From Vairimorpha necatrix (Eukaryota), in NCBI GenBank assembly GCA_036630325.1, contig CP142728.1, forward strand, positions 1,178,001 to 1,242,000: a stretch of 64,000 nt of DNA, in the 5' to 3' direction. Both the position numbers and the translations under genes were made by a program. The stretch's first letter is position 1, and each line of letters begins with the position of its first letter. Of the stretch, positions 5,140-61,252 are shown in pieces. Under the pieces are notes generated by a model, which was given only the letters and a program-made list of their open reading frames with translations, was not told where the DNA came from and ran no database searches.

Positions 5140-5450
5140 TGCTTGTAAGTAAGAGGATGGAAGAACCCTTATATAGAAATCTGAAGGACTTGGACCTTGA
5201 TCGTCATCTGACTGATACTGTAAAATTATTACTAAAAAAAAACAACCCCATAAAATTTGATGACAGCAAGCTCTGTTATATTCATTAGACCTTGGCTAGA
5301 AAAACATTTTTTATTTATACCTCAATTCGTGTCAAGTGACCTCACAGCGGAAATATTTGACATAAGGGTCTCTCAATCAAGAAAGATAGAGAGACATTAT
5401 CTGTATATCGCACACGACTCCTTACACCGCCACATTATCAGCCCGGCATA
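5140..5450 (-). mobile_element. Old 5'-truncated copy of the tRNA-headed SINE (3' part only)
   Basis: Aligns by eye with 6588-6922 (gtaagagg..gaaccctta, tttatacctcaa, gacctcacagcgga, ctccttacac, cagcccggc). Ends are approximate. Confidence 0.8.
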
Positions 5451-5816: not shown

Positions 5817-6095
5817 GAGTTTCCAGGCTATAAGATCCTTATAAAAGAGACCATGGATCTCTTTTATGGGTGTATGTCTTCTATTGATATAAAAATTTGA
5901 AATTTTTTTTATTTTTTTTGAAAATTTACCCCCATAAAAAAAATCTTACACTCTAAAATAAAAATTAAAAGGATTACAAAAATTGCGTGAAAATAATGGC
6001 AACATAAGTATGACTGCTCTCGAGTTGCAGATTACTGTCAAGTTTTCAGGTTAAGAGATCCACTTATAGAAGAGACCATGGATCTCTTCTACTAG
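5817..6095. repeat. Two ~50-bp direct repeats, each containing a perfect hairpin
   Basis: ataaaagaga-ccatgga-tctcttttat (5841-5867) and tagaagaga-ccatgga-tctcttcta (6067-6091). Confidence 0.8.
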
Positions 6096-6585
6096 TATAA
6101 AAAATCCATTTCAAAAAGTCGTAAAATTCGACTTTGGGGTGGATCTCTTACCCGTAAACCCCCGTGATAATAATAAGGAACTTATCTGAAGACTTGCTTT
6201 TTAATTTTTGACCAAATTCACCGATATTATTTCTTTTTTTACTACCGTATTTTTTATCTTAATCGATTATTTGACGCACTCTCTACTACTTATAAAGGCC
6301 ACTACAAAAAGAACTCAATTTAAGTATTTTTGTTTTTAATTTTGTTAACATCCTTTTTACGACCACCTTATCTACAATAAAGAAAATATTGATAGAATTA
6401 TGAATAAATTTTTTTTTAATTCTGTAGGGAATTTCTATCATTTGATCCATCTTTGGCAGGCATTGTATTTGAAATTGTTTCATTCTTATCAGTAAAATCG
6501 TTATCATATTTCCTCATACACGTTTGTATCTGGGGCTTTCGTCCCATAACTTGAAAGAAAACTTATTTGTAGCGGGGGGGGGGGG

Positions 6586-7372
6586 TTCTTGCAAGTAAGA
6601 GGCAGGGAGAACCCTTACATAGGGACCAGGGGGATTTGGGTGTGATCCTCATCCAACTGGTACTGTGGAATTTTACTCACTAAAACTCCCTTCATACAAC
6701 TTGCCGGCGCGCAACCTCCGCCGTATCCATTGGACTTTGGCTCCAGGAGAACACTTTCCATTTATACCTCAAATCGCGCCCAGAGAGACCTCACAGCGGA
6801 TATACTTAATGGCATGGTTATCTATAACCCCGAGGAGAGACATAATCGTACTGATTCAAAGGTCCCTACAATCATCTGTATTTCACACACGGCTCCTTAC
6901 ACGACCACATCCCCAGCCCGGCGTTTTTTTTTTATTGGGCTGCGTTGACCACCAGTCTCCCACTAGTTTCGGCCACCGTGTTACAGAATCATGTAGTATA
7001 GGGTCCACGAGACCTTCTATTGCCCTACTTCGTCTAGTCTCTTAGTTCGCTCTAGGATCCCATCTAGAGTGCACCAGCCATGGGCGCCAACTAGGCTGTA
7101 CCCATTAGATACCTTTATGTATCATTAAGTCACCAAAGGGCGATACTGCTTTTTGGCTTTGAGGTGCGTTTCTACACTAGATGCTAATCCCCTTGTGGCT
7201 GGGCACACACAAGTTTCATTGAATCTACTTAATGATTATCGTGAACATTTTCATCATCTGAGTTGTTCCGACTGCATCATAGAAAGTATAAACAATTTTG
7301 GTGCCCCCGGGAATCGAACCTAGCCATTGCTCAATAGAAGCATTGCATTCTGCCACTGTGCTAAGGGCACCT
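6586..7372 (-). mobile_element. tRNA-headed SINE, full-length young copy
   Basis: Minus-strand tRNA-like head at 7299-7370 with A and B boxes; highly similar to 24420-25189; 13-bp TSD tttgtagcggggg at 6566-6578 and 7373-7385. Confidence 0.88.
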
Positions 7373-8544
7373 TTTGTAGCGGGGGTATGGCGGTGTTATA
7401 ATCATATACAACTTTATTAATAACTACTAACCATTTGTTATTATTATAATGCTTTTTTTAAGATTTTTCTGTGTGTAACGAGTAAGGGGTATTAGATCTC
7501 TCGACTTGTCCTGACACTGAGGATGGCGGGGTCTGCCATGAATAAACAAATATTATTTAGAAAAGAAAATTTAACTAATAATTTTTTTTTTTACTGTCTA
7601 CCGATGTCACATTTAACTATAGCTAAAACTTAACGTTTGAGATTTATATTCTTACTTTGATGCGACTTCAACGGTGTTTATTCACGAAGCAGAGATAAAA
7701 GTAGATTTAACCCATATTTCACTACTCTAAATGCCCAATAGAAGCCGTAAATTTCACCGACATACGCACTCATATAGACACCATCAATGAATAATCTTTC
7801 GAAAGACTAATAGCGGCGACGTGCGAATTTTTTTTATTTAAGAGTTGTGTTTGAATATATATGATTTATTAACTGCAAAACTCCCTTAAACACACCCAGG
7901 TACACTAGAGTATAGTTATTTACATTTCGCGAAGTTTCGGTCTTGGATATTATGTACTGTAGATAGTTTACTTTGATCTTTATTTCATAGATTGAACCAT
8001 GTTATCACAAGTCTTGTTTTCCAACTATTACATATTTTGTAAAGAGAATTTTTATACAACGAAAAAATTTAGGATTTCTTCCTTAGAGTATATTGTGAAT
8101 GTTTGTCGCGTCCAAACTAACCACCTCACCTTTGATTATTTAAACAAGTTGATAATACTGATCTGGTTCAAACTCTTTTATTAGTTTAAAAGTGGATATT
8201 TCTTAAAATATTATAAGTATACTTTTTAATTTCTTTATAAGGATGTTGCCATAGCCTGGCGCAGTGGTTACGACTCTCTTGACTTTTTGGACATAGATTT
8301 AAATTCTAAAGGTATAAAAATTACTTAGCCGTTGACAACTTAAATTTTAGCCAATTTTTTCTATAATAAGCCCAAAAATATTAATGTATTTGTAGGTTTA
8401 TTTACATCATTTGGATCTGAAAACGTTTAAATTTAGCAGTGAGTTTAAAAAAATACCAAAAGTCCTCGATAGGGACGCAGTAGCATTCTAAATATATATT
8501 GAAAATTGTTTTTTGAGTTAATTTATCATAAAGCTCAAATATTA

Positions 8545-13619: not shown

Positions 13620-14440
13620 TACATAAGGTAGTGAAAATTTACATAAGCAACACAATATCTTGAAGCTATGAGTCTCATCCGGCTTATACTGTGAGATTCT
13701 TACTTGCTGTGATTTTTTCAGTAAGACTTGTCCGATATTAAGCTCCATTGTATCTAATGGACTTTGGCACTAGAAAATATCTTCCCATCTGTGCCTTAAA
13801 TCGCGTCTAGAAATATCTACAACCAAAAAAATTATCACAAATGAATAGGAGGATCGAGAAGAGATATCCATTTGCTTACACCAAACGTCCCTTTAGTCAT
13901 CTACACAGTGCACAGTTCTCTTAGAACTCTAGTTTATCAATTTCGCTTTTTAGGCTCTTTTATCGATGTCTCCCACAAGTTTTAAGCTGTGTTACATAAT
14001 TTATTGAATAGGGTCTACGAGACCTTCTTGTCATACATCCTCTGTTTCTTTAATTATGCTTTTAGGAGTTGCGCCAAAATGCACGAGCCAAGATCTTTTT
14101 CTTAATTCAATACTCTTTTGTATGATAAAGCGAAGTAAATCTCTAGTAATTCCGAATCGTAGTCGACGTTTAAACTAGACGTAGTTCTTACGTGGCAAGA
14201 GACAGCTAAGTTTTGACAACCAATGTACTGGTAGGTGTTGGAATAAAAACATGAGATTATTAAAAAACAACGACACGATGTATTTGACATATTTGGAACT
14301 TTACAGTTACCGTAGATAAACTACGTAATTTAAAATGATTCGACCTTTATTCAGAGTAAAAACCTTTTACATGCTTTTCGAGAATCGAACTCTGTTCTTC
14401 ATGTATCATCATAATGCATCTGAACACTAAGCCACAAGCT
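13620..14440 (-). mobile_element. Old diverged near-full-length SINE copy
   Basis: Collinear matches to the young copies (ctcatcc..tactgtgagatt, tggactttggc, aaatcgcg, gtctcccac, atagggtctacgagaccttct); decayed tRNA-like head at ~14372-14440. Confidence 0.7.
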
Positions 14441-24102: not shown

Positions 24103-25310
24103 TTTTTGCAAGTAAAAGGCAAGGAGAAACCTGACAAAATGACCAAAAAATATACGTATGATTCAAGTTTAACTAGTATTTTGAGTTTCTTACGCACTAT
24201 AATTTCATCCATATAACTTTTTGAATTAGTATATCTCCTATCGTTCGGCTTTGCTTAGATTAATCGGTTACCATCTATATCACTATCTATAAGATTCACC
24301 TGAAAGTATCTTATCATATACGGGATTAATAACACAGGAGAGATAGTACCGTACTGGCACAACCCCCCCCCTTTCAACTGAATCTCAGAAACCCATTTTT
24401 AATGGACTGCGTTGACCACTTTTTTTTTGCAGTAAGAGGTAGGAAGAAACCAGAGAATTTTAGCTGTGATCCTCATCCAATTAGTACTGTGAGATTCATA
24501 CTCATTAAAACTCCCTCCATACAACTTGCCGGTGCAGCAAGCTCCGCCGTATACATTAGACTTTGCTCCAGGAGAACACTTATTATTTATACCTCAAATC
24601 GCGTCCAGAGTGACCTCCCAGCGAATATACTTAACGGGCATGGTTATCTATAACCTGAGGAGAGACATCATCGTACTGACTCAAAGGTCCCTACAATCAT
24701 CTGTATCGCACACACGGCTCCTTACACGACCACATCCCCAGCCCGGCATTTTTATTGGACTGTGTTGACCACCAGTCTCCCACTAGTTTCGGCCACCATG
24801 TTACAGAATCTTGTAGGATAGGGTCCACGAGATTTTCTATTGCCCTGCTTCGTCTAGTCTCTTAGTAGGCTTTAGGATTCACTCTAGAGTCCTCAGCCAT
24901 GGGCTCCAACTAGCCCGTACCCATTAGATACTTTTATGTATCATTAAGTCCCCACAAGGGTGATACTGTTTGGCTAAGGGGTGCGTTTCTACACTATATG
25001 ATAATCCCCTCGTGGCTGGACACACACAAGTTTCATTGAATCAACTTAAAAATCATCGTGGACATTTTCATCATCTGAGTTGTTCCGACTGCATCATGAA
25101 AAGTAGAAACAATTTTGGTGCCCTTGGGAATCGAACCCAGCCATTGCTCAATGGAAGCATCGCCTTCTACCACTGTGCTAAGGGCACTTTGCGTTGACCA
25201 TTTACCTTCTGTCAATTTCGACCACTGTGTTACAGAATCCTGTAAGATATTGTCCACGACACCTTTTATTTCTTTATTTCGTTCAGTCTCTTAATTAACC
25301 TTATAAAATT
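24103..25310 (-). mobile_element. Old SINE copy split by insertion of a younger copy (pieces 24103-24418 and 25190-~25310)
   Basis: ttgcaagtaaaaggcaaggagaa matches the SINE 3' end; similarity stops at tgcgttgacca and resumes at the same motif after the young copy. Confidence 0.75.
24420..25189 (-). mobile_element. tRNA-headed SINE, full-length young copy
   Basis: tRNA-like head at 25116-25187; A9 tail (T-run 24420-24428); 11-bp TSD tgcgttgacca at 24408-24418 and 25190-25200. Confidence 0.9.
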
Positions 25311-37538: not shown

Positions 37539-37744
37539 TCTTTACTTATTTAGAATTGAATTGTAAAAAAATCTTTTATTTTGTCATTTAAATAATTTGT
37601 TGTATTTTTTTTAAATTGTAAAATTTTTTTTTTATGATTCGTTATTTTTTATCATAAAAAACATATAATGAATTTAAACTATAGTATTAATAGGATTTTT
37701 TTTAATGTATAGTTCAATTTATATAGACATATGTAAAAACAAAT

Positions 37745-37995
37745 TTTTTTTATTGTATAATAATTATAATGGACATATATAGGTTCTCTAAAATTTCAAT
37801 TGTAAAATTATCAAATAATTTTTAATTGTATAATAATTATAAATAGACATATTTAAATGTCATTAAAATTTTTATTGTATAATAATTATACATGGACATA
37901 TATAGGTTCTCTAAAATTTCAATTGTAATATTGTCAAATTTTTTTTATTATATGTAAAATTTTTGTTGACATATATAAATGTTAATAAAAATTTT
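37745..37995. repeat. Degenerate tandem repeat, ~123-bp period
   Basis: attgtataataattata..atggacatatataggttctctaaaatttcaattgtaa occurs at ~37752 and ~37875, with a related subunit between them. Confidence 0.8.
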
Positions 37996-38162
37996 AATAA
38001 TAGTGTCTAAAATTTTTATTTAGTTAATTATATATAGACGTTTAACATGTATTTTAGTAGAAATGTTGTTTAAATTTTTTTTTACATATATAATCACGAT
38101 GTGGTTTATTTTTTGGAGTATTTTTTATTGATCTATTATAAAGCGGGTTTTTTTTGTTTTAT

Positions 38163-46685: not shown

Positions 46686-48483
46686 TTTTGACGGGGTTGT
46701 GAAGTTTCTGTTAAAAATCAAAATTAACCTATCAATTTTGTTTAAAAAACAATGATGTGGAAACAAACTTCTTGTCAAAGTTTTAACAATTTTTCCTAAT
46801 TTTTCTTACATGTCAACAGTCAGAAAATCCATACCTGTAGATCATGAAAACATTTCGATTTTTTCATTGTCTGGAGCTTCTTTATTATGAACAAATTTCA
46901 CTTTTTCATGTTTTGTAATAGTAATTTCACTATAGTAACCAGTATAAAAATCCAATTATTTTCACACCTTTTAAATTATAGAATTGAAAAATTTACATCG
47001 TATTTATTAGAATTTGTTTAATAAAATGGATCTACTTCGCCATTTTGTTTGTTCTTTAATTCATTTTATTGAAAGAAAAGCTTGACAAAATATTTTTTGA
47101 TAAATTTTTATCTTTCGCTGAGGAAAGCAAAGAAATAAATAATAAGAAAAACAAACCGCTCTTAATCTTAGCCGGATGTCTTTTGTTGGAACAATGCGAA
47201 TATCTAGTCCATGGATATAATCGTGAAATTATATTTAATAATGTTCAGGAAGCTACCGCAGCAGAGTATTTTGTGAGGAGAATAGCGCATATTATTTATA
47301 TGAATAGTTTTTAATGTTTTTACACGTACATAACTAGTAAGTACATGAAAACAAAATCTAAACGACGAATAAAATATAAGCAAATTTGCCCGATTTATAT
47401 TTTTTAAGTACAAAATAGACTTGTCGTAGATAAATAATGGCTATACTTTTACAATTTTATCTCTTCTAATACCAGATAATCTACACCATAATATGCTTAC
47501 TACATGAAGGTTTCAGCGGAATCTCATCTTTTATCAATCTCTACATTTTCGTTCATGTTATACATTGCGTAACAGTCTTTGTAAAAGTTGAATAATTTTT
47601 ATTCATTTTATTGATTAATAAGACTACAATTGTATGTTTACATTAAGCTTACACCAGTGAGACAGATAAAATATTTTTTTTTGTGTACTCTAATAAGCAT
47701 GTAAATAAAATAGAAATTTTATCAACAAGCTATAATTTTTTTTTAATTTCTTATATAGCAAATACATTGTGTTTACAACACCTTGAATTATATGTTAAAA
47801 ACGTCATGACTCATACATAAGTTTTTGGAGAAACGAAAAGAATTTGATTTATTAAAGCACAAATTGTTGTAAAATAATGTAAAATAATGTAAAATAATTG
47901 CGATAGTAAATTTATATTTATAAATCGTATTCCGATATTTGAACATGCGTATATGGCAAATGTATTATCACAACATACATGTGATGTTTTTCCACAAATC
48001 TATCATATTGTCAATAAATTTAATATAAGAACTATAATGATACTACATCACTTTCAATGTATTAATTTATTAATAGAAACACTTGTCTTTTGACTAATGA
48101 TTTTTATCTGTCAGTATTTAGAATATTATGAGAAAAGCTATACATAGACGTTTTCTGTTTTTGTTTATAAACGAAAAAAATTATTTAAGATCACATTTCT
48201 ATTAAAATCGATTTGCAAAAGTTATACCTAAACATATTCTCGTTTTGTTTATAAACAAAAAATCAATTCGCGAAAATTCTATTCCTATTAGAAATTAATT
48301 ATCGAGTTCTTTTAATTTTTAATATAACAAACAATATTAGAAATGTAATGTCGTTATAAACAAAGTTAAAAGATCTATTTGATTCGAGATCCTTTTTAGA
48401 CAACTATTAAGTCGAAAAAATGCTCTATTATTGCGTATGGATGGTAATTAATATGAAATAAAAAATTAATTTTTACCCAATTA

Positions 48484-49428
48484 ATGTATTTCCACATTCT
48501 AACAGCTTTCTGCTCCGATGTGTTCAATAGTAAAAGCGAGGCGACAGTTTCAACAAACGAAAACCATGACGAGATTGTAGAAAATAAAACCACATCAATT
48601 TGTCATAGACTATTGATTAAAGAAAATATGATTAACAATGCAAAAGAAAACGTCCCTAACTCTGAGAATTTGAGATTTCAAACTTATAAAACGATTGAAT
48701 CGTTTTTAGAATGCGCCTCTAGTTTTGACCTGAACCAAGCACACGTGTTATCCGTTGTATTAGATAAAACGGAGGAAAATTATTTAAAAAATAATATTCA
48801 ATTGAACATAGATCAGGATATTGCTAAATATCTTTATCTTTTAACTAATCTGGGATTTTCAACTTGTTGCTGGAATTCGATAGATTTTTATATTGAAAAA
48901 TCGTCTGTTAGACTCAAAATTTCAAATGAAGACGACCATAATTCATATAGAAACTTACAAAAAAGCATTTATTACTGGACGAAAAATCCATCTATCATTA
49001 TAAATGAATTTTTAGAAGAGTTATCAAAACTAATTTTCAATTCTAAAATAAATGAAAAGGCAAAAATTTTATTATTCTACCAATTGCAATATTGTTATGA
49101 AGCTATGGATTACATTCATAAGCTATTGCCTTTTAGAGAAAATCGTAAAACTTTAAGCACCGAATTACTATTTAATTATATTCATCTAACTCAAAGATTA
49201 CCATTATTACTTTATAATATGAACTTACAAGAAGTCTTTCAGGATTTTTTTAAACTAGTTAATGAGCATTTCAATGAACAAGATCCTGTTTGTGTGGAGA
49301 TTATTGGGTTGGTGAAAGAATTATCTGATAGACTTAATATTACGTATAATGGAGTTAGTAGGTTTATTGAAACAATATCTGCAATGTCGAAAATACTTGA
49401 AAAGGCAGAACATAAAAGTTATATATAA
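48484..49428 (+). CDS. Orphan tandem family member 1, probably secreted
   Basis: 314 aa; MYFHILTAFC leader; shared QLQYCYEAMDYIH.LLP and DPVC motifs. Confidence 0.85.
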   Translation: MYFHILTAFCSDVFNSKSEATVSTNENHDEIVENKTTSICHRLLIKENMINNAKENVPNSENLRFQTYKTIESFLECASSFDLNQAHVLSVVLDKTEENYLKNNIQLNIDQDIAKYLYLLTNLGFSTCCWNSIDFYIEKSSVRLKISNEDDHNSYRNLQKSIYYWTKNPSIIINEFLEELSKLIFNSKINEKAKILLFYQLQYCYEAMDYIHKLLPFRENRKTLSTELLFNYIHLTQRLPLLLYNMNLQEVFQDFFKLVNEHFNEQDPVCVEIIGLVKELSDRLNITYNGVSRFIETISAMSKILEKAEHKSYI

Positions 49429-50919
49429 ACATTTTTATATACAAGATATTTTAAAAGTGTGCATTTTGACATCGATGTTCACTACATTTAGAATTGCAAA
49501 ATTATGCCTATTTTCTAAAGTGTACGGAATAAATTTAATGTTACATTAATTTATTGTAAATTACATACATGACATCTTAAGAACCTTTATAATTTTTATT
49601 AAAAAAGAATTAATAATTGCATATTGATATAATAAATTGTTGTTTATGTTAAATAATCGCAATAATAATTTTATTGTTTTGCATTCTTATTCGAGAAATC
49701 AAAGTAGTTTTTTACACCTGTAATATTTTTAGAATGCACATTTATGTGATTATATTGGTTTTATAATGCAGTTAACATCAAGTTCTTCTGTCAATTCAAC
49801 ATTTTAGCAAACAACTAATCTCGATATGTACATATTATAAGCGGGTGCTCAACATATGAATCTAATTTTATAAGAACTTAAAACTAACTTTTTGCCCGAT
49901 ATTTAACTATAGGACGACAATCAGTAGTAGATATAGACCGTTGTGTTGACTTTACCTCAGTGGCAGATTATGAAATCGGGTTAAATATCCGCGCGCGCCC
50001 TTGCGACTTTCGCCAAATGCTTACACCGACAACCTTCTTTACATCTTCTATGTGCGTATTCGGATGCAACTTTCCTAGACAAAATTATTAATAAGATATT
50101 ATAAATGCATAAGCTACAGTAATTCACTGTGCTGCTCTACAACCGTTATGCATAGTACGACATTAAGTTTATAAAGAGATTGTTTGACATTATTTAGGTC
50201 TATTATCCAATTAGAGAGCCAAAATTTATGAAATTACTGTTAACATTCAAATTTTTTTTTAATGACGTGATCGTGATCCCAAGAGCATAGGCTCAACAAT
50301 GAGTTTATTAATATTATAATATATTTTTACGAGCTAAAAAGAGAAAAGGTCAATTCATTTCTCTGCTAAAAAAAATATATATACTAATTCTTAGAATCCA
50401 ATAAAAAAGTTTAATTACGGAAGCAGTCAAATGCAAAGCATATAAAGAATAATTTATATTGTGTATCAAGTTCGAATAAAGTCGACAAGTGCAACATTGC
50501 CGATGCACAAAAAAATTTAAAGAATATATTTTTATAGCCTTAACACATAAACTCATTTAGATAATATGTACCTGGTAGGTATTAGTTTGACATATTAAGA
50601 GGGTAGCAACAGATTTTAATAAGCTATTAAATAAATTTAGTAACAAAACGTTTTAACTAAACAAGTCTTCTTAGGGCATAGCCCCAAAGCTTAATACTTA
50701 ATTATAAATCATCATTCAATCCAAAATACACAAAATAACCCATATAAGTCGGCTGAACGAGGAAATAATATAAGGATAAAGTTACTCATGTTACCGTTTT
50801 GCCGCCAGTTCCAATTAACTTGTGGTTGAATTAAACAGAGAGTCCATTATGTTAGATTATATGTTATAAATAGTAAATGTAAACGAAAACGATTATGATT
50901 AGCAGTCAAGACATTGTAT

Positions 50920-51300
50920 ATAAGTCGATAAAAAAGTTTAAAGCGTAAGTATGATGTTGGACATAAAGTAGAGAGAGTTAGATGCGGCTGAGTATAAAAA
51001 ATTATGACTACATTTTTTGATTAAATGGAATCGGCCTCATTAATGCACTGTTTTTTCCGTTAGGAGATAATTAAGTGTCTTTTCTACATAAAAAGGACAC
51101 AACAATAAAATGAATAAATTTGAATGCTGTACAGTGGATTACAACAAGTATTTAATGAATTATTTACAGGTGGTCATACAAACAAAATTGAAGGAAATGT
51201 TTATTTGTGAAATATTGAACTCGTAAGAAGAAAAACAATTGTTTTCTAATGTTAATTGCGAACCATGTTGTTAAGAAACTATAAGCAATATTTCCTACCA
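50920..51300 (+). pseudogene. Merlin (IS1595/ISXO2-like) transposase remnant
   Basis: KRKYDVGHKVERV at 50941, KGHNN..FECCTVDYNKY, then TGGHTNKIEGN at 51166, across frameshifts. These parallel Merlin KRKYNRG and HxTVNH..F...TGxHTNxIEG. Confidence 0.75.
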
Positions 51301-51868
51301 GAGGGCAAGTCCAGATGTATACTAAGACTTGCATTCCTAAGGAATAAGTTTTATATTGATAGATCTAATGTAAGACCATAAAGCAATTAAAAGTTGATGG
51401 CCAAAGCCACGCCCTATTATGTAATAGAATCCCCAAAAACGCTTATTTGACAAGTGTTTCTGATTAATAAATATCTTTAACATATCATTAGCAATTATAT
51501 AAACTATATCATGCCCGAGAAGATGCAAAACGACAGCTCAAAAGTCGCAATAAGAATAAAAAACAATATTACGTAGACAAACAAAAGTCGCCCTCACATT
51601 TTCAATGAAGGGCATTGTTAAGTAATTTATTTATTATATTTTCTAGAAATACCATGTTCACCCTCACGAAATCTTTTAGATATTTTCCAATTTTTAAACT
51701 CACAATCATCGCCTTTTCAGCGGACAAATGATCCAACATATGCACGAAAAACTCTCGACAATCAATAATGTTTTTTAAAATGGATTTCCTCTTTATATTT
51801 AAAAAATCAAGGGTAAAAAAAACTTAAAGTGATAAGAAATGCTTCAAAAATCATTTTTTGTTTAATCC

Positions 51869-52807
51869 ATGTTTTTTTATTATTTAGCAGCTATGTGTAC
51901 AAAAATTCCGGCAAATGTTTCAGAACTTCCTAAAACATCAGAAAACAACTTTAATGTCGAAGAACAGCGCAGTACCAAACGTACCATCGCTTTACTACGT
52001 CAGAAACTTCTTAGTAAGAAAAATATAACTGCAGAAGAAGAAGTTTCCACTTATACTGACACCTACAACTGGAAATTCCATCCTTATAAGAAATTGGTTT
52101 TAACATCAAAACGAGTCGACAATAATGAGCCACTTAATTTATCTGTTCAAAAAGAAAAAATAGCGAATAAAAAAATTTTAGAGAATAATATACAACCAAA
52201 TAAAGATCAGACAAATGAAAATATATTCATTCTACGTAAAAAGTTAAGGGAACAAATATATTTATGGGGAAGCAGCGATTCATATCTGAATGTCTCAAGA
52301 ACTTTTTTGCATTTTGAAGATGAAAAAGACCAAGTTCCATATTCGAAATTGAGAACTAAAACGTCGCCTTGGATTTGCACCACGTCCAGTATATTCACCG
52401 ACTTACTAGACCCATTGCATAAGTCAATATCTAAATATAAAATAGACGAAAAAACAAAAACCCGCTTATTGTGCCAATTACAATTTTGCAATGAAATTAT
52501 GGCTTACATTCATAGTCTTTTGCCCGTCAAAGAAAAATGGTTACATCTAAATACGAAATTGCTGTATAGCTATTTACGCATAGTCGACAGATTCCCAACT
52601 CTATTTCATGAGATGAACTTATTTGAAGTCTTCGATGATTTTATTAGATTATTTAGTAAATGTTCTAAAACTAAAGATCCTGTCTATTTAGAAATAGATG
52701 ACCTTATGAGGAAACTGGATGAACGACTTAATATCATTAATAACGGTCTTAATGACTTTATTGAGACAATTAATAGTTTAATCGAAATATGTAAAAACAC
52801 CTCGTAA
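51869..52807 (+). CDS. Orphan tandem family member 2, probably secreted
   Basis: 312 aa; MFFYYLAAMC leader; QLQFCNEIMAYIHSLLP and RFP.LF.EM motifs. Confidence 0.85.
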   Translation: MFFYYLAAMCTKIPANVSELPKTSENNFNVEEQRSTKRTIALLRQKLLSKKNITAEEEVSTYTDTYNWKFHPYKKLVLTSKRVDNNEPLNLSVQKEKIANKKILENNIQPNKDQTNENIFILRKKLREQIYLWGSSDSYLNVSRTFLHFEDEKDQVPYSKLRTKTSPWICTTSSIFTDLLDPLHKSISKYKIDEKTKTRLLCQLQFCNEIMAYIHSLLPVKEKWLHLNTKLLYSYLRIVDRFPTLFHEMNLFEVFDDFIRLFSKCSKTKDPVYLEIDDLMRKLDERLNIINNGLNDFIETINSLIEICKNTS

Positions 52808-54690
52808 AAATTTTAAATAAAAATTAAAAGTTTTGACATTTTCTTTCATGTATGCATATTTCATATAAAATTATAAAAAGTATATCTTTTACGATACATC
52901 ATGGAACTTCAATTATTATATAATGTCCAAATGCCCTCATTATATTTCTTACTCTTTAGTTTTTAATTTCTAAATATTATCATATAGAACATTTTTTAAA
53001 TGTAAAATTTTCTAATCAACTTTTATACGCAATAAAAGTTAGTTTCGGTTGGCGGGTTTTTTTCAAAATGCATGCTCATAGCTTTTCGTAAACAGCACTG
53101 TGATGATAAAAAAAGGTTCAATTTTTAAATTAAAGGTTTAGTAGATAATTCTTAAATGAAAAAAGTGTCTATGATAGAAGTACGGTGATTTATAAAACGA
53201 ACCACGTTTTGTGCAAAAAGATTTACATTCAAAGCAGAAAACATCATAATCATAAAATTAATTTCAATGTATATTTTTTTTTATGATTTTATAGTATAGT
53301 ATAAAAATCGATAACTGTTGTGAAAAATAAATGACAGTAAGCTTTCAGATAGCCCGGAATATCCTACAGATCATGTAACACACTGGCCGGAACACGTGTC
53401 GGCTAATGGTAATCATTGTCAATAGATTGCGCCCATTTGATTAGTAAAGAGGAGATATGTATTTAATACAAATTACATAAAAAAATATTATGTTTTTTAC
53501 GAAACATTTTTTCAAGGCCATTGAGTTCGTTACTCATAATTTGCATCACTGTGATTTTTTTAGCCAAGGTGAGTATAAACAGCGACATATGCTCTAGATC
53601 GAGTAATATGGACAAAAACAATTGTATTATGAGCAGTTTTTTTGTGCGTAGAATTTTACAATATCTATCAAATAGTGCATATAATGACGTACCTCAAATC
53701 GCATATTAGGATTGTCCCGTCATTAGATGCAAAGGAAGTTTAATGAAGCTCGTTTTTTGGTACATCTATTTAAAGACCGAAGATAGTTAAAAGAAAAATA
53801 TTAGAATTAATAAATCAATATAAAAGTAGATTATCTTTTTCAGTACGAAAAAAACGTATGGCAGATGGGCTGCACAATGAAAAACATATTGATGTGACGT
53901 AATCAAAACAAAGTCATGAATTATAGCCCGTAAAATGCCTTGTTTATTTATATAAAGTAGTTAATCAAATTATTAATATTGTTAAGAACAGATTTTTTTT
54001 TTGTGACACAAAGGAACCTAGATTGTTGCTATATATAGACAACAAATATAAATTATGTTCATTAATAATTTCGCACATTCAATATACGATAGTCACGCCT
54101 TTAAAACGGTTAATAAACTTAATATTCAAAAATCAAGACAAACTCTCGACATGTAAATTTTTTACTTCAATATTGGGTCTCATGTGGTATTATTTAGTAT
54201 TTTTTAAAACAATAGAAAAAACGAAAGTAAATATAATTATTCATATGTATTTGTCATTTCGCAGTTTGGCTATTCTGAGCATCATAATACAATATTTATT
54301 TTTTATATACAACAATATAGATAAATTTATTTATACTTAATAAAAACTTTGCTTGAAATATATGAAAAATCTTAGGTGTTTACTTGAAAAGATTTCCTTT
54401 ATTAAAATAATAGGTTGGCAATTTTTTTAGATCAAAATTCATCTTTCTGTGGGTATAAAGTTTTTGCTACTGAGGAATGATTATTTTTAAAGAACATCCA
54501 AACATTATCATTGTTCAAGTTTTGCACAAAAACACAACAAAACAGAAAATTAGGAATAATAAAGCTAAAATTCGTAAGGAATTATTTTCATTAAAATGTG
54601 TAGTAATAGATTTTTAAGTCAAGAGGATGCAAGCATTATTTCGTTAAAATTTAATTAATTATTAATAAAATCATTTTTTACACCCAAACC

Positions 54691-55641
54691 ATGTTTTTTT
54701 ATTTTGTAACAGCTATATGTTCTGAAATCACTGAAAAAAATACTAATGGTTTATCAACAAATGAAATATCAGCGGAGAAAGATCTTAATGTGTATAAAAA
54801 CATTAATACACTATTATGTCATGGAAAAAAGAATAGGAAAGACATAAAAAACTATAAGAATAAAAACTCCTCAGATTCTGGAACAAGTATAAATACTAGC
54901 TTTAATCTGTACAAAAAACGGAATTTAACAACAGAATACGGTTTTAAATGTGAAAAAAATGAATCAAAAGACTTCTTAGCTAAAAAAACGAAAATAGAAA
55001 ACGCGAATATTATAAGTGACAATAGACAATTTAATATTGATCAAACCATTTTTGAATATCGAATTCATATTATAAAAATAAAAGAACTTATTGTTAAATG
55101 GGATTTAGAAGATATCAATATGAAAGTCTCACGAACCAAAATTAAATTTGTAGATAAAACTGACTACGAGATGTATAGACATCTAAAGCAAAGAATAAAT
55201 AAATGGATAATCCCCACATCTACTATGGTTGATGATTTATTATTACCGCTGGATCATTTAATAGTTTATTCGGATATAGATATAAAAACAAAACAATTAC
55301 TATTCTGCAAATTAGAATTTTGTTACGAGGCCATGATTTATGTTCATAAAATATTGCCTACTAAAGAAAATAACAAACAGGTGGGTTATAAGCAATTATC
55401 TAATTATAAGGACATAACTAAAAGATTCCCTGTTTTATTTTTTGAAATGGGCTTAAAAGAAGTATTTCATGATTTCATCAAAACATTTCGTGAAAATTAT
55501 AATCCCAAAGATTTAGTCTGTATTAAAATAGTCTATTTATTGAACGATCTAGAAGATAGACTAAATATGGTTTTTAATGGCTTTGATAAGTTTATTAAAA
55601 ATATTATAAGTATGTCGAAATTACTTTATAAACTAGATTAA
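54691..55641 (+). CDS. Orphan tandem family member 3, probably secreted
   Basis: 316 aa; MFFYFVTAIC leader; KLEFCYEAMIYVHKILP and RFP.LF.EM motifs. Confidence 0.85.
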   Translation: MFFYFVTAICSEITEKNTNGLSTNEISAEKDLNVYKNINTLLCHGKKNRKDIKNYKNKNSSDSGTSINTSFNLYKKRNLTTEYGFKCEKNESKDFLAKKTKIENANIISDNRQFNIDQTIFEYRIHIIKIKELIVKWDLEDINMKVSRTKIKFVDKTDYEMYRHLKQRINKWIIPTSTMVDDLLLPLDHLIVYSDIDIKTKQLLFCKLEFCYEAMIYVHKILPTKENNKQVGYKQLSNYKDITKRFPVLFFEMGLKEVFHDFIKTFRENYNPKDLVCIKIVYLLNDLEDRLNMVFNGFDKFIKNIISMSKLLYKLD

Positions 55642-55957: not shown

Positions 55958-56181
55958 TGTGGACTGATGGTTTCCCATCAGTCCGAGAAGAATGTTTTAG
56001 ACTAATATTTTTATTATTCTTCATACCCTTCTGGGCATGATTTTCTTTTATAATTTTAGGCGGGAAAATATCACCAATTTCCCTCCAAAAATTATACATG
56101 TAAAGAGGGAGAATACTTACAGCATGGTATTCTCAGATCTCCAGGGTAATCTTAGTATCACCGGAGATCTGTCCCCTGACA
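55958..56181 (-). repeat. 3' LTR
   Basis: Identical by eye to 59743-59966. Confidence 0.97.
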
Positions 56182-59100
56182 CTCCCCCTTTCTTTATCGG
56201 CTCCCAGGTTTCTAGTTCAAAGTCCATCTTCTTTAGGTCTTTCCAATTCACCGAGAACACTTCATTATTAGGGCTTATTATTTCATATGCCCCTTTCTTA
56301 CCCACCTTAGTTATCGTGTATGGGCCCTCGAACTTACTATCCAATTTATTTTTAATCTTGATGAGTGGTTTTCTTCTTAGCACCACGTCTCCTATCTGAA
56401 GTGTCTGTTCTTTAACATCCTTTATTTCACCTTCTCTGGCCTCTCTCTCGGCTTGTAACATAATATCCCGAGTATGCTTTAATCTTTCAAATATTAAAAA
56501 ATTATCTTCCAAATATAAGGTTTCTTCTTCGGGATGTTCCCATGTCATAGGTTTTCGTCCATATAATAGCTCAAAGGGAGAGAGTCCTGTTATTTTTCTG
56601 GGAGAAATTCTGTACGCGTATAGAGCCAGTTCGACGTATTCGTCCCAGTCTTTCCACCTTCCATTTATGATCTTTGCCAATTTGGCCACTAGTGATTGAT
56701 TGGTTCTTTCTACCGTGCCATTACATTGTGGGTGGTAGGCTGATGTAAAAGATTTTCTTATTTTAAATATTCTACATAGTTCTTTGACCGTACTGTTTAA
56801 AAATTCAAGTCCCCTATCTGAAAGAATTTCATTGGGTGGGCCATGTCTACATATAATCTCCTCGAATATAAATTTAGCCACTGTTTTAGAAGTCTTATTT
56901 CTTACGGCTTTCGCTTCGCACCATCTTGTCAAGTAATCGGTGGCGACTATTAGATATATTTTACCATTCTCGGACTTAGGTAGAGGTCCTACCATATCAA
57001 TTCCTACCAGTGAGAATGGATCTTTTAGGCGAATCCTGTGGTGTTCTCTTGGTATTCTTTTTGAATTGAATTTTAAACATACCTGACACTTTCCAATCAC
57101 TTGTTTTATTTCCTCATACATGCCTTTCCATTTGGCTTGGTCAAGAGTTAGAGTGTATGTTGGGAGAGTGCTTCCATGTCCACATTCTTCGTGGCATTTC
57201 AGTATAAGTTCTTTACGACTCTCGGGCGATAGTTCTCGTTCATTTTTATATTTTACTGTGTGAACAAATCTTGTCAATCCGTCAGCTACAACGTTATCTT
57301 TTCCTTTTATGTATTCGATGTCATAGGAGTAATTTTCCAATGTGAGAATCCATCTCATTAGTCTTCCTGTACTTTCTTTATAACTTAGCAGCCATTTGAG
57401 TGCTTGATGATCAGTTTTAATGGTAAAAGTATTTGTAAGATAAATACGGAATTGAGATATGCTCCATATTATCGCCAGGCATTCTTTTTCGGTTACTGTG
57501 TAATTGATTTCAGCTGGATTTAGTTTTCTTGAAATGAAGTATACAGGCATTTCTGTCTCATCGTATACTTGCATTAGCGTTGCTCCTATATAAAGGTTTG
57601 ATGCATCAGTGTACAAGATAAATTTCTTAGTGAAGTCGGGTAGCTTTAAAACGGGAGAGCTCGTAATGATCTCTTTTATTTTCTTAACACTTTGTATGGC
57701 TTCTTCCGAGAATTCAAATTTTCCTTTCTTAAGGCAATCGTAAATAGGAGCCATTATATCTGTGTAGCTCCTTATAAATTTTCTAAAGTAATTTATAAAT
57801 CCAATAAAGGCTCTGGTTTCTTTAAGTGTTGTGGGAATTCTCAAATTTAGACATTTAGTCTGTTGTTCTAACGGTATACTAATACCAGTTTTATTTATCG
57901 TGTATCCCAAGAACTTCACTGTATTCTTTCCGATTTTACATTTTCCGCAGTTGACCCTCAGTTTCAGTTTGTTTAGTATTTTAAAAACCGCTTCTACGTG
58001 TATTAGGTGCTCTTCAATTGACTTCGAATATATCATTATATCGTCCAGGTAAACTTGTACAAATCTATGTAAGTAAGGAGATAATATCGAGTTCATTATT
58101 TTCTGGAATGTAAAAGGTGCATTTACCAGCCCAAATGGCATTCTAACCCATTGGAAAGTTCCTGATCTACTTCTGAAAGCTGTTAGATGCCTATCTTTTT
58201 TTCGAATTCGTATTTGATGGTATCCTGATTCCAAGTCCAAAACTGTAAATACGGACGCTCCTTGAAGTTCTTCTATGGTTTCTTCTACGAGTGGAATTGG
58301 GTAAATCATCTTCTTTGTAATTTTATTGAGTCTCCTATAGTCTATACAAAATCGTGTATCTCCATTCGGTTTTTTTACAAGCACTACCGGAGAAGTATAG
58401 TCTGACTCACTACCCTCAATGAATCCTTTACTTAGGAATTCTTTTACTTTATTTTCGATTATTTCATTTTGTTCCGGCGATCTTCTAAATTGAATATTCT
58501 TTACCTCTGAAAAGTCATTAGTTATTTCAATCGCATGCTCAATGTCTAAGCACGATTGTTGATTATTATCAGAAAATACATCGGGATATTTTGAAATAAC
58601 TTTAATGAATTTTCCCTTTTCATTCTCTGTCATATCTTCTTCTCCAACATCTGCTATTTGAATTTCGGATGCTTTCGCCGTTGTAGTGCAGATAGACTTA
58701 GTTATTTGGGTACTCTTAATTTTATCCAGTATTTTATGTAAGTTTAAGTTCAAGATATCTACTAGGCCAATTATAAGGTCTTCTGGCAGATTCTTGACTA
58801 CATGGGCCTTCAAGACTTTTGTTTTTTTGGTCTTAGGATTTTTTACTAGAAATTCTACTATCCCTTCTGACTTCACTATACCTCCTATTCCTGCTATGGT
58901 CATCGCCTCTTTTTTTGGTTTTAACCCTAATGCTTGGGCTTTATTCCTATTTATGCAGTTAATCTCGGCTCCGGTGTCAATTAGCGCAGCAATTTTTTCT
59001 TTATCTGAAAAAAGATTTATCCTGGCTCGGATATCTGTTGAATTTTTTTTTGTTTCCACTTTACCTATTTTCAGGAGTAATGATGAATTCGAATTTATCT

Positions 59101-59884
59101 GAACTGATTTCTTGTTTATAGTTCTATATTCTTTTTTTTCCTGTAATTGTGTTTCCTGTTGTGGCTTCCTAAATAAGTTTTTTCTTTTCTTTATGTAATT
59201 ATTTATAAAAGTTTCTTTTTCTTCTAGTAGTTCTAATAACTCTATCCAGTCTTGAGTATCGTTGACTGGCTCCTTTAAAGCATCCGGAGAGTTTCTTAGT
59301 ATGGCAATCTTTGATCTTTCAAAGTACTCTGTGTTTCTCTTAGCATACCTCTTTAGGTCATAAGCGTAACTTATAATATCGCTTTCTTTTGGACCTTGAA
59401 CATATAGGTGCATAAACATATCAGTGTTGTCCTCCACTAGTTTCTCCTTTATATATTTTTTTTGGAATTGGGATTTGAACGTCTCGAAGTCTGTTATCTC
59501 TTCGCCCTCGAAAGCCTTATACCATCTTAACGCTTTGCCTTTCAGTTTGGTTTTGGCAATATCTAGCGTCTTGGCTTGTGAATAAACGTCTTCAATTTCT
59601 CTGAACTGAGATAGAAAGTCTTCGGCTTTACTTAGATCTTCGCCGGTAAATTCTGTCCATCTGTTTTGGAGACATAGTTTTTTCATGTAAGAGCAGATGT
59701 CCTCGATCTCATTCATCTTATCCTCTTCACCGTTACCACCAATGTGGACTGATGGTTTCCCATCAGTCCGAGAAGAATGTTTTAGACTAATATTTTTATT
59801 ATTCTTCATACCCTTCTGGGCATGATTTTCTTTTATAATTTTAGGCGGGAAAATATCACCAATTTCCCTCCAAAAATTATACAT
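56117..59884 (-). CDS. Gag-Pol polyprotein (PR-RT-RNaseH-IN)
   Basis: LIDTGA, YLDD, YTDAS, HHCC, and GIDMVGP/SDRG/NGTVER DDE motifs in Gypsy order. The true start may be the ATG at 59716, after the PBS. Confidence 0.95.
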   Translation of the reverse strand: MYNFWREIGDIFPPKIIKENHAQKGMKNNKNISLKHSSRTDGKPSVHIGGNGEEDKMNEIEDICSYMKKLCLQNRWTEFTGEDLSKAEDFLSQFREIEDVYSQAKTLDIAKTKLKGKALRWYKAFEGEEITDFETFKSQFQKKYIKEKLVEDNTDMFMHLYVQGPKESDIISYAYDLKRYAKRNTEYFERSKIAILRNSPDALKEPVNDTQDWIELLELLEEKETFINNYIKKRKNLFRKPQQETQLQEKKEYRTINKKSVQINSNSSLLLKIGKVETKKNSTDIRARINLFSDKEKIAALIDTGAEINCINRNKAQALGLKPKKEAMTIAGIGGIVKSEGIVEFLVKNPKTKKTKVLKAHVVKNLPEDLIIGLVDILNLNLHKILDKIKSTQITKSICTTTAKASEIQIADVGEEDMTENEKGKFIKVISKYPDVFSDNNQQSCLDIEHAIEITNDFSEVKNIQFRRSPEQNEIIENKVKEFLSKGFIEGSESDYTSPVVLVKKPNGDTRFCIDYRRLNKITKKMIYPIPLVEETIEELQGASVFTVLDLESGYHQIRIRKKDRHLTAFRSRSGTFQWVRMPFGLVNAPFTFQKIMNSILSPYLHRFVQVYLDDIMIYSKSIEEHLIHVEAVFKILNKLKLRVNCGKCKIGKNTVKFLGYTINKTGISIPLEQQTKCLNLRIPTTLKETRAFIGFINYFRKFIRSYTDIMAPIYDCLKKGKFEFSEEAIQSVKKIKEIITSSPVLKLPDFTKKFILYTDASNLYIGATLMQVYDETEMPVYFISRKLNPAEINYTVTEKECLAIIWSISQFRIYLTNTFTIKTDHQALKWLLSYKESTGRLMRWILTLENYSYDIEYIKGKDNVVADGLTRFVHTVKYKNERELSPESRKELILKCHEECGHGSTLPTYTLTLDQAKWKGMYEEIKQVIGKCQVCLKFNSKRIPREHHRIRLKDPFSLVGIDMVGPLPKSENGKIYLIVATDYLTRWCEAKAVRNKTSKTVAKFIFEEIICRHGPPNEILSDRGLEFLNSTVKELCRIFKIRKSFTSAYHPQCNGTVERTNQSLVAKLAKIINGRWKDWDEYVELALYAYRISPRKITGLSPFELLYGRKPMTWEHPEEETLYLEDNFLIFERLKHTRDIMLQAEREAREGEIKDVKEQTLQIGDVVLRRKPLIKIKNKLDSKFEGPYTITKVGKKGAYEIISPNNEVFSVNWKDLKKMDFELETWEPIKKGGVSGDRSPVILRLPWRSENTML
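56182..56195 (-). other. Polypurine tract
   Basis: aaagaaagggggag directly abutting the 3' LTR. Confidence 0.9.
59728..59741 (-). other. Primer-binding site, probably tRNA-Leu
   Basis: TGGTGGTAACGGTG lies 1 nt after the 5' LTR and is complementary to a tRNA ending CACCGTTACCA-CCA. The Leu assignment is an inference. Confidence 0.8.
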
Positions 59885-59966
59885 GTAAAGAGGGAGAATA
59901 CTTACAGCATGGTATTCTCAGATCTCCAGGGTAATCTTAGTATCACCGGAGATCTGTCCCCTGACA
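59743..59966 (-). repeat. 5' LTR
   Basis: Identical by eye to 55958-56181. Confidence 0.97.
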
Positions 59967-60334: not shown

Positions 60335-61252
60335 ATGTTTTTTTTATTTTTTATCAACTATGTGCTCTTACGTCTTTAAGAAAATCTGTAATGTTCTAGA
60401 TTCAACATATAATCAGACTTATGGAACTTTGGGGCATTAAAAATACAGTTACACCAATAAATTATAAGCTCATGATTAAAAAACCATTTGCAACGCAGAA
60501 AAAACTTTCACCGCGAATATTCATACATGTGAAAAAAATCGAAATGACATCAGAGTGTACCTCGGATTTCGACTTGAGAAATTGCCCGACTTATTCTATC
60601 TACCCGAGAGAACCAACGACGAGAAAATATTAAATAGTAACGTACAATTTATTAATGATCGAAAATTTAGATTTATAATTGTCTTTACAATAATTTGAAA
60701 AATTTGATTAGTGAATGGGAAGAAAAAGATTCTAATTTAGAGCGCAATATATATAATATTATTATTGAGGATCAAAGCGATAAATGAAGTATAGACTTCT
60801 AAAGAATAGAATGAATGATTGGATAAGCAATTCTATTATTATAAAAGACGTTTTATTTTGCAAATACTACATTTAATATATAATTCTTAAATAGATAAAG
60901 ATAAGAAATTAAATTTATCTTACCAATTAAGATTTTGCAACGAGTTTATGGATTACGTCTGCAATCTACTGCCTTCTAAGGAAAATATTTACTATGAAAA
61001 TTCCGAGTTACTATTTAATTTTGTCGCATAATTCAAAGATTCACAATTTTATGTTATATAATAAACTTACAAGAAATATTAAACGATTTTTAGGTATTAA
61101 TTACTGAAAATCATGATGTCCAAGATTCTGTTTGTATAAAAATGAAAAATAAAATGGAAGATTTTAATTATAGACTTCATGTTACTTATTATGGTCACGA
61201 TAATTTTATCAAAACAATTAGAAGTTTGTATGAAATGCTTAAAAAGTATTAA
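60335..61252 (+). pseudogene. Orphan tandem family member 4, pseudogene
   Basis: CCC..ATGTTTTTT start; frameshifted pieces YQLRFCNEFMDYVCNLLPSKEN and QDSVC..RLHVTYYG..NFIKTI; same length as its paralogs. Confidence 0.85.

What the first reader, a model, noticed from the sequence alone, without database searches (positions are those of the whole stretch)
6566..7385. Unannotated ~780-bp tRNA-headed SINE family, five copies in 64 kb
Seen: copies at ~5140-5450, 6586-7372, ~13620-14440, 24103-25310 and 24420-25189, all on the minus strand. The young copies start with a tRNA-like head: gtgccct acceptor, tagcacagtgg A box, ggttcgattcc B box and a non-canonical anticodon arm. They have 13- and 11-bp TSDs, and one has an A tail. 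Known: these are hallmarks of Pol III SINEs inserted by target-primed reverse transcription. Inference: an unusually long SINE with a wide age range, in a group where I do not know SINEs to be well described. tRNA scanners could miscall the heads.
Basis: partly seen in the sequence, partly recalled or inferred. Interest (0 to 1): 0.75.

Follow-up and report, generated by a model that had tools for sequence, protein, structure and literature searches.

The report
Microsporidian tRNA-SINE with LINE-derived structured tail
This is a real, recently active jumping element (a SINE) of a microsporidian parasite, an ordinary kind of element that has hardly been described in this group, and its tail comes from a LINE in the same genome and ends in a folded RNA module that unrelated retroelements also carry.

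Summary
Confirmed: a ~780-nt tRNA-headed SINE in a microsporidian (a protein from this genome is named Vairimorpha necatrix). Five copies lie in the window and at least 155 loci genome-wide. Of the 30 best copies, 25 have 11-18-bp target duplications, 24 of them after an A tail (control 9 of 870). A diverged paralogue shows an empty site. A 7-copy subfamily is 99.2-100% identical. Earlier notes of this scan found the family elsewhere in this genome.

Added here: about 95 nt of the tail match the ORF2 end and 3' UTR of an A-tailed APE-RT LINE of this genome (79%). That LINE also makes ~13-bp duplications, but I found no full-length copy. Both end in a four-way-junction RNA with a tRNA T-arm-like hairpin. 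It covaries, occurs in two circular permutations, and follows Gypsy, Copia and LINE ORFs in metagenomes. It has no Rfam match. Its function is untested; my guess is 3'-end or poly(A) protection. Length is not exceptional for fungal SINEs.

The parts
7373..7385 (-). 13-bp target-site duplication, 5' copy
   Evidence: exact direct repeat with 6566-6578
7299..7371 (-). tRNA-like head: 7-bp acceptor stem and T arm kept in the family consensus, D/anticodon region refolded; source tRNA unresolved
   Evidence: (Rfam tRNA 20.2 bits, cut-off 29)
7353..7363 (-). Pol III A box
   Evidence: sequence; promoter role inferred
7310..7320 (-). Pol III B box
   Evidence: sequence; promoter role inferred
6751..7298 (-). 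non-coding body of unknown origin, not unusually structured
   Evidence: sense frames of the consensus open for at most ~52 codons; z -1.0 on copy L006
6658..6750 (-). block homologous to the last codons of ORF2 and the start of the 3' UTR of LINE B (G000:C6:~721058-724425)
   Evidence: (79% over 99 columns, E 1e-16; 12 of 15 residues)
6601..6694 (-). terminal four-way-junction RNA module (P1 stem, U tract, T-arm-like hairpin, P3, small hairpin P4, U tract); hairpin damaged in this copy
   Evidence: (58.8 bits; the model included a sister copy)
6579..6590 (-). tail: AAGAA plus 7 extra C (A run in most other copies)
6566..6578 (-). 13-bp target-site duplication, 3' copy
24420..25189 (-). second young copy, 88% identical, 9-A tail, 11-bp duplication (25190-25200 / 24408-24418), lacks 13 nt of the module
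24105..25300 (-). older 5'-truncated copy (model ~323-783) into which the young copy inserted
5142..5449 (-). old 3' fragment (model 445-783), 72% identical
13626..14440 (-). very old, probably full-length copy, ~66% identical; head part weakly supported

Best explanation
A non-autonomous non-LTR retroposon (tRNA-derived SINE) that has amplified in several waves. Shown: fixed ends, tRNA head with A and B boxes, non-coding body, A tail, variable duplications, an empty site, a near-identical young subfamily, and a tail related in sequence and fold to the 3' end of an APE-RT LINE ('LINE B') of the same genome. Inferred: Pol III transcribes a copy from the internal boxes, reads through the genomic A run and stops at a T run downstream; ORF2 of a LINE B-type element binds the LINE-derived 3' region, nicks a target with little sequence preference, primes on the A tail and reverse-transcribes the RNA, leaving a 11-18-bp duplication (about 0.65 that LINE B or a close relative is the partner). 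The terminal four-way junction is a general 3'-UTR element inherited from the LINE; I guess it protects or defines the 3' end next to poly(A) (about 0.35), and it may also help ORF2 recognise the RNA.
For: Duplications of 11-18 bp in 25 of 30 copies against 9 of 870 mismatched flank pairs. Truncated copy L029 has its own 11-bp duplication. Empty site in a 71%-identical paralogue of the L015 locus. At least 155 loci on all 12 contigs and both strands, 74 with head and 3' motif in register (from; control patterns 0). Seven of 31 copies form a 99.2-100% subfamily with long A tails. Tail block matches LINE B and reads like the C terminus of the V. ceranae homologue P0002. A 348-bp truncated LINE B copy has an A tail and a ~13-bp duplication with one mismatch. 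Three other non-LTR families examined have T- or AT-rich tails, no SINE match at their ends and no module hit. SINE and LINE B predict the same junction although their last ~65 nt share no sequence.
Against: No full-length LINE B was found: three copies, one 3.4 kb and 5'-truncated inside the endonuclease, one decayed, one 348 bp, which sits badly with a very young SINE subfamily unless an intact copy lies in sequence not held here. The match is only 79%, so LINE B may be a relative of the donor. LINE A has 11 open 1242-aa ORF2 frames and makes a 16-bp duplication at one locus, so it could be the present driver. Five of 30 copies gave no duplication. The lack of T runs in the sense strand is not significant (one T4; P 0.27), and 13 of 63 tRNA genes have only T4 downstream, so the T4 in the module could terminate some transcripts. 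The SINE module alone folds only modestly better than shuffles (11 of 200).
Confidence: 0.88

Rival explanations
1. Same SINE, but now mobilised in trans by the abundant LINE A family (or another LINE) through the A tail alone; the LINE B-like block is a relic.
For: LINE A has 11 open ORF2 frames and a 16-bp duplication at L065; LINE B has no full-length copy here.
Against: LINE A copies end in T-rich tails, share no 3' sequence with the SINE and lack the module; SINE and LINE B share tail type, duplication length and fold.
Confidence: 0.25
2. A multicopy functional non-coding RNA gene (tRNA-promoter-driven structured RNA) that only spreads as a by-product.
For: Acceptor stem and T arm are kept in both head subfamilies; the 3' module is a covarying structure.
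Against: The body folds no better than shuffles (z -1.0) and has no Rfam match at cut-off; copies decay down to ~66%; the module is explained by descent from a LINE.
Confidence: 0.06
3. A non-autonomous DNA transposon (MITE) or a small-RNA-bearing LTR element.
For: High copy number and no coding capacity; MITEs are reported from microsporidia (PMC7313128, passages).
Against: No terminal inverted or direct repeats other than the duplication; duplications vary from 11 to 18 bp and follow A tails.
Confidence: 0.01
4. The 3' module is a self-cleaving ribozyme.
For: Conserved core with two circular permutations, as in some ribozymes (recalled).
Against: No Rfam match; inserted SINE and LINE copies keep the whole module followed by an A tail, which cleavage inside it would prevent.
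Confidence: 0.05

Closest known systems
tRNA-derived SINEs (SINE2) with a LINE-derived tail, as defined in PMC5786205 (part 1 of 5 read)
   Same: head-body-tail plan, internal A/B boxes, tail similar to the 3' region of a LINE, variable duplications
   Different: ~780 nt with a ~550-nt body of unknown origin; the LINE-like block includes the last ORF2 codons; the last ~65 nt keep the fold but not the sequence of the LINE
Long fungal SINEs MgSINE (472 bp), Egr1 (700 bp), mgsr1 (800 bp), EGH24 (900 bp), Foxy (PMC5063351, passages)
   Same: length range, copy number of tens to hundreds, fungal-related host
   Different: no sequence comparison was possible; host is a microsporidian; partner LINE candidate identified in the same genome
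'SINE' class in Nosema bombycis (28,669 bp, 0.18%; PMC3614468 Table 2)
   Same: same family of parasites
   Different: only a line in a repeat table; no sequence, head, duplication or partner described in the passage seen, so identity with this family is untested
ENE poly(A)-binding stability elements of transposons and viruses (PMC12501189 part 1 of 5; PMC7583470 and PMC13541005 passages)
   Same: 3'-UTR position after the last ORF, found across unrelated mobile elements, U tracts beside G-C pairs, poly(A) close by
   Different: U tracts sit in a four-way junction with a T-arm-like hairpin rather than in an internal loop; the 3' U tract is short (2-4 U); two circular permutations; no triple helix shown

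Membership tests
tRNA-derived SINE (SINE2) | 5' head derived from tRNA with A and B boxes | tested here: met
   (27 of 30 heads called tRNA by ARAGORN; best genomic match tRNA-Ala 48 identities over 73 nt)
tRNA-derived SINE (SINE2) | interspersed, multicopy, fixed ends | tested here: met
tRNA-derived SINE (SINE2) | variable-length target-site duplication and empty site | tested here: met
   (25 of 30, 11-18 bp; control 9 of 870)
tRNA-derived SINE (SINE2) | A-rich or simple-repeat tail; 5' truncation | tested here: met
   (A runs in 29 of 30; L029 truncated with duplication)
tRNA-derived SINE (SINE2) | non-coding | tested here: met
   sense frames of the consensus open for at most ~52 codons; two antisense stop-free frames of 100 and 140 aa exist in the focal copy and were not scanned
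tRNA-derived SINE (SINE2) | 3' region shared with a LINE of the same genome | tested here: met
   79% over ~95 nt, terminal ~65 nt similar in fold only
tRNA-derived SINE (SINE2) | transcribed by RNA polymerase III | not testable with these tools
   only contig-level runs were available
tRNA-derived SINE (SINE2) | mobilised in trans by LINE ORF2 | not testable with these tools
   inferred from insertion signature
an already catalogued SINE family | match to a Dfam, Repbase or SINEBase consensus | not testable with these tools
functional tRNA gene | Rfam tRNA score over cut-off and canonical cloverleaf | tested here: not met
   20.2 bits against 29; D/anticodon region refolds
MITE or non-autonomous LTR element | terminal inverted repeats or LTRs, short fixed duplication | tested here: not met
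ENE element (for the 3' module) | U tracts on both strands next to a G-C-rich stem, near the 3' end | tested here: inconclusive
   first P1 pair G-C in 16 and G-U in 4 of 21 parsed sequences; but the 5' U4 was fixed by the search pattern and a 3' UU by the parser
ENE element (for the 3' module) | U-rich internal loop closed by a helix on each side | tested here: not met
   four-way junction instead
ENE element (for the 3' module) | triple helix with poly(A) and RNA stabilisation | not testable with these tools
   needs melting, probing or reporter assays
any Rfam family (for the 3' module) | score over the gathering cut-off | tested here: not met
   element; 12 of 62 metagenome loci searched, 0 matches

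The most novel reading that the evidence does not exclude
The SINE's tail carries an undescribed class of 3'-end RNA element: a circularly permutable four-way junction with a tRNA T-arm mimic and two U tracts that Gypsy, Copia, LINE and SINE elements of diverse eukaryotes (and perhaps an RNA virus) have exchanged or reinvented, and that protects or defines their RNA 3' ends in an ENE-like way; and this is the first SINE-LINE pair characterised in microsporidia.
Probability: 0.4. Interest if true: 0.78.

Novelty: new member of a known kind. Interest (0 to 1): 0.5.

Why it matters
Microsporidia are a model of genome reduction and the TE surveys I searched do not describe SINEs in them; here one family has at least 155 loci in 15 Mb and was active very recently, with a candidate partner LINE. 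Its heads fool ARAGORN (27 of 30, nearly all as tRNA-Met), which can inflate tRNA counts. Young copies are usable as strain markers. The tail module is the more surprising part: a ~90-nt covarying structure shared across retroelement classes is small enough to test directly, and if it stabilises RNA it would add a new kind of transposon 3'-end element.

Tried and rejected
LINE A (ORF1 558 aa, ORF2 1242 aa) and two single-ORF RT families as tail donors: no 3' similarity, T- or AT-rich tails, no module. Source tRNA: Ala scores best for both heads by a small margin, Leu has most identities for the second subfamily; 50 distinct tRNA sequences compared, His, Tyr and Val were not among them, so unresolved. 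Structured body: not supported. Terminator avoidance: not significant. Expression: no RNA holder listed; four runs laid were contigs, three of which cover most of the element with many variants, one only a small part; nothing follows about expression or habitat. Relatives of LINE B in metagenomes: none confirmed, so the LINE 5' UTR could not be compared with the body. LINE clade: not assigned; solved R2 and L1 proteins match about equally. Module in viral contigs: strict pattern 0 hits; the loose pattern gave 12 loci, most of which look by eye like T arms of phage tRNA genes, so covariation of the T-arm-like hairpin itself remains untested. A recalled resemblance to lepidopteran SINE tails found no support in paper text or in 12 supplementary files. 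The fungal SART-1 motif is unrelated (PMC5640933, passages). Tycowski et al. 2016 on transposon ENEs was not held, and one supplement of PMC4202319 was not searchable; either may bear on novelty.

Full report
Setting. The window is 22-38% GC with compact genes and lies on contig C3 of a 15.0-Mb, 12-contig assembly. A protein encoded elsewhere in this assembly is 100% identical to one that the database names Vairimorpha necatrix, so the host is a microsporidian of that group.

Observation. BLAST of the finding against the window and a profile from 31 copies recover all five copies on the minus strand, with no hit in the reversed window. The young copy at 24420-25189 sits inside an older one. 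The focal copy has an exact 13-bp duplication and no terminal inverted or long terminal repeat. The head begins at 7371, where a 7-bp acceptor stem closes with 7300-7306. This copy ends in AAGAA and 7 extra C and has a damaged 3' hairpin.

Family. The genome search gave 327 candidates, of which 40 were scored and 30 fetched. Three motif scans gave 102, 94 and 94 hits with zero control hits. Merging the listed places (100, 94 and 91 after dropping 3 LINE hits) gives 155 distinct loci on all 12 contigs, 74 with head and 3' motif in register; these are lower bounds. Of the 30 best copies, 25 have a duplication of 11-18 bp, against 9 of 870 mismatched flank pairs; five gave none; three copies share a flank and are not independent. 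L029 starts at position 44 with its own duplication. A 71%-identical paralogue of the L015 locus lacks the element and has one copy of the target. Seven of 31 copies carry a variant head, are 99.2-100% identical and have the longest A tails; the other 24 average 95.8%, and window relics fall to about 66%.

Head and body. ARAGORN of 30 heads tRNAs, 26 as Met(CAT), but the focal head scores 20.2 bits against Rfam's cut-off of 29. Both head types keep the acceptor stem while the D/anticodon region folds into one irregular hairpin. The source tRNA is unresolved. The ~550-nt body has no Rfam match, no long sense frame and no unusual folding energy.

Partner. I examined four non-LTR families found by RT searches. 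Only one, LINE B (G000:C6, 1092-aa open frame with RT over the Pfam cut-off and weak endonuclease and zinc-finger hits), matches the SINE: consensus 619-713 is 79% identical to the ORF2 end and 3' UTR (E 1e-16), and the SINE frame gives 12 of 15 of the last residues; the V. ceranae homologue ends in nearly the same peptide. LINE B is A-tailed, and a 348-bp truncated copy has a ~13-bp duplication. Against this: only three copies were found, none full-length, while LINE A has 11 open ORF2 frames and makes a 16-bp duplication at one locus, though with T-rich tails. The species is reported to be tetraploid (PMC10759460, passages), so an intact LINE B may lie in sequence not held here; that is inference.

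The 3' module. The last ~65 nt of SINE and LINE B share no sequence (1998 of 2000 shuffles score as high) yet fold into the same four-way junction (0 of 200 shuffles for LINE B, 11 of 200 for the SINE). A 21-23-nt core pattern found 62 metagenome loci. Of 42 distinct parsed sequences (LINE B included; 5 loci and the SINE consensus did not parse; duplicates dropped), 21 form the full junction, against 14 of 630 with shuffled flanks; 13 are open at P1 and 8 at P3, that is, circularly permuted. On a sequence-only alignment of 14 P1-open examples chosen from these, 89.9% of cells pair and 13 of the 15 pairs outside the fixed hairpin change on both sides (0 of 500 shuffles; slid controls 38-58%). 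The selection favours pairing and the hairpin was fixed by the pattern, so its own covariation is untested. That hairpin is a 5-bp stem with a 7-nt UNNGARU loop; a looser pattern retrieves what look like T arms of phage tRNA genes. Of 64 long frames near the hits I scanned 49: 19 loci have a Gypsy-type, Copia-type or non-LTR protein upstream on the same strand, 16 ending within 160 nt of the core; several are near-duplicates; one locus has a CRPV-type capsid frame with only a partial module. Poly(A) follows directly in four P1-open loci. No Rfam family matches (12 loci searched).

Mechanism. Most likely Pol III makes the RNA from the internal boxes and ends at a downstream T run (first T5 at 29-1293 nt); LINE B-type ORF2 then copies it by target-primed reverse transcription. 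Insertion signature and tail homology are shown; transcription and mobilisation are inferred. Because the module also follows LTR-element ORFs, it cannot be only a LINE recognition signal. Its position beside poly(A) and its U tracts on a G-C stem resemble ENE stability elements (PMC12501189 part 1 of 5; PMC7583470 and PMC13541005 passages), but it fails the internal-loop criterion, so I do not file it as an ENE.

What is in print. Term searches of the main text found no 'SINE' in PMC4202319, PMC7313128, PMC10759460 or PMC13174016; PMC13702014 and PMC11585130 use it only as a category; PMC3614468 lists 0.18% SINE for N. bombycis without description. Supplements searched: 9 files of PMC7313128, 1 of 2 of PMC4202319, 12 of PMC8010984, with no relevant hit. 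Library searches for the family and for the module gave no description; subscription papers and repeat databases were not covered. Fungal SINEs of 700-900 bp exist (PMC5063351, passages). Earlier notes of this scan reported the same family on other pieces of this genome, one mentioning a folded tail module; I tested that lead here.

Verdict. A genuine SINE, a new member of a known kind, apparently uncharacterised in microsporidia, with a plausible partner LINE. The part worth following is the shared four-way-junction tail module.

Noticed in passing
G000:C3:~840100-846500 and L061-L068, L071: LINE A (ORF1 558 aa, ORF2 1242 aa APE+RT) forms head-to-tail arrays in local clusters on several contigs, with T-rich tails; a ~440-bp unit made of a GC-rich hairpin plus the LINE A 3' UTR recurs in the arrays. 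Two of three LINE B copies sit in such arrays.
   Followed up: partly
L069-L084 (e.g. G000:C10:758400-762050): Two further single-ORF non-LTR families (one with a 1199-aa frame), ending in AATAAA plus T- or AT-rich tails.
   Followed up: partly
window 55958-59966: Gypsy-like LTR element with 100% identical 224-bp LTRs and an open 1266-aa frame; no module hit near it.
   Followed up: no
G000:C6:347804-347966 and C9:791339-792941: Extra ~82-nt head-only units in tandem before a full SINE, and a head fragment plus two SINEs in tandem.
   Followed up: no
window 6579-6585: Seven extra C replace the A tail next to a target that begins with a C run, suggesting slippage during priming.
   Followed up: no
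L020-L025, L028: The youngest subfamily has a changed D-arm region identical over 12 nt to tRNA-Leu/Ser of this genome, possibly a recent promoter improvement or conversion.
   Followed up: partly
window 53360-53411 (+): Weak profile hit (E 0.027) to body positions 374-427, a part also retained in the oldest copies.
   Followed up: partly
L159/L160 (one contig): The module occurs twice 6.3 kb apart around a Gypsy ORF, so in that element it probably lies in both LTRs.
   Followed up: no
L211:105-168: Core of the module 32 nt after a CRPV-type capsid frame; the full junction did not parse.
   Followed up: partly
window 6715-6750 and L164, L071: Upstream of the module the LINE-derived block holds a short hairpin with two compensated pairs between SINE and LINE B, overlapping the ORF2 stop region; similar C-terminal peptides end several homologous ORF2 proteins (read by eye).
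   Followed up: partly
window 48457-55641 and ~60874-61135: Cluster of diverged ~310-330-aa ORFs similar to each other.
   Followed up: no
window 37699-37996; 5818-5866 / 6041-6091: A ~120-bp tandem repeat, and a short ~50-bp direct repeat.
   Followed up: no
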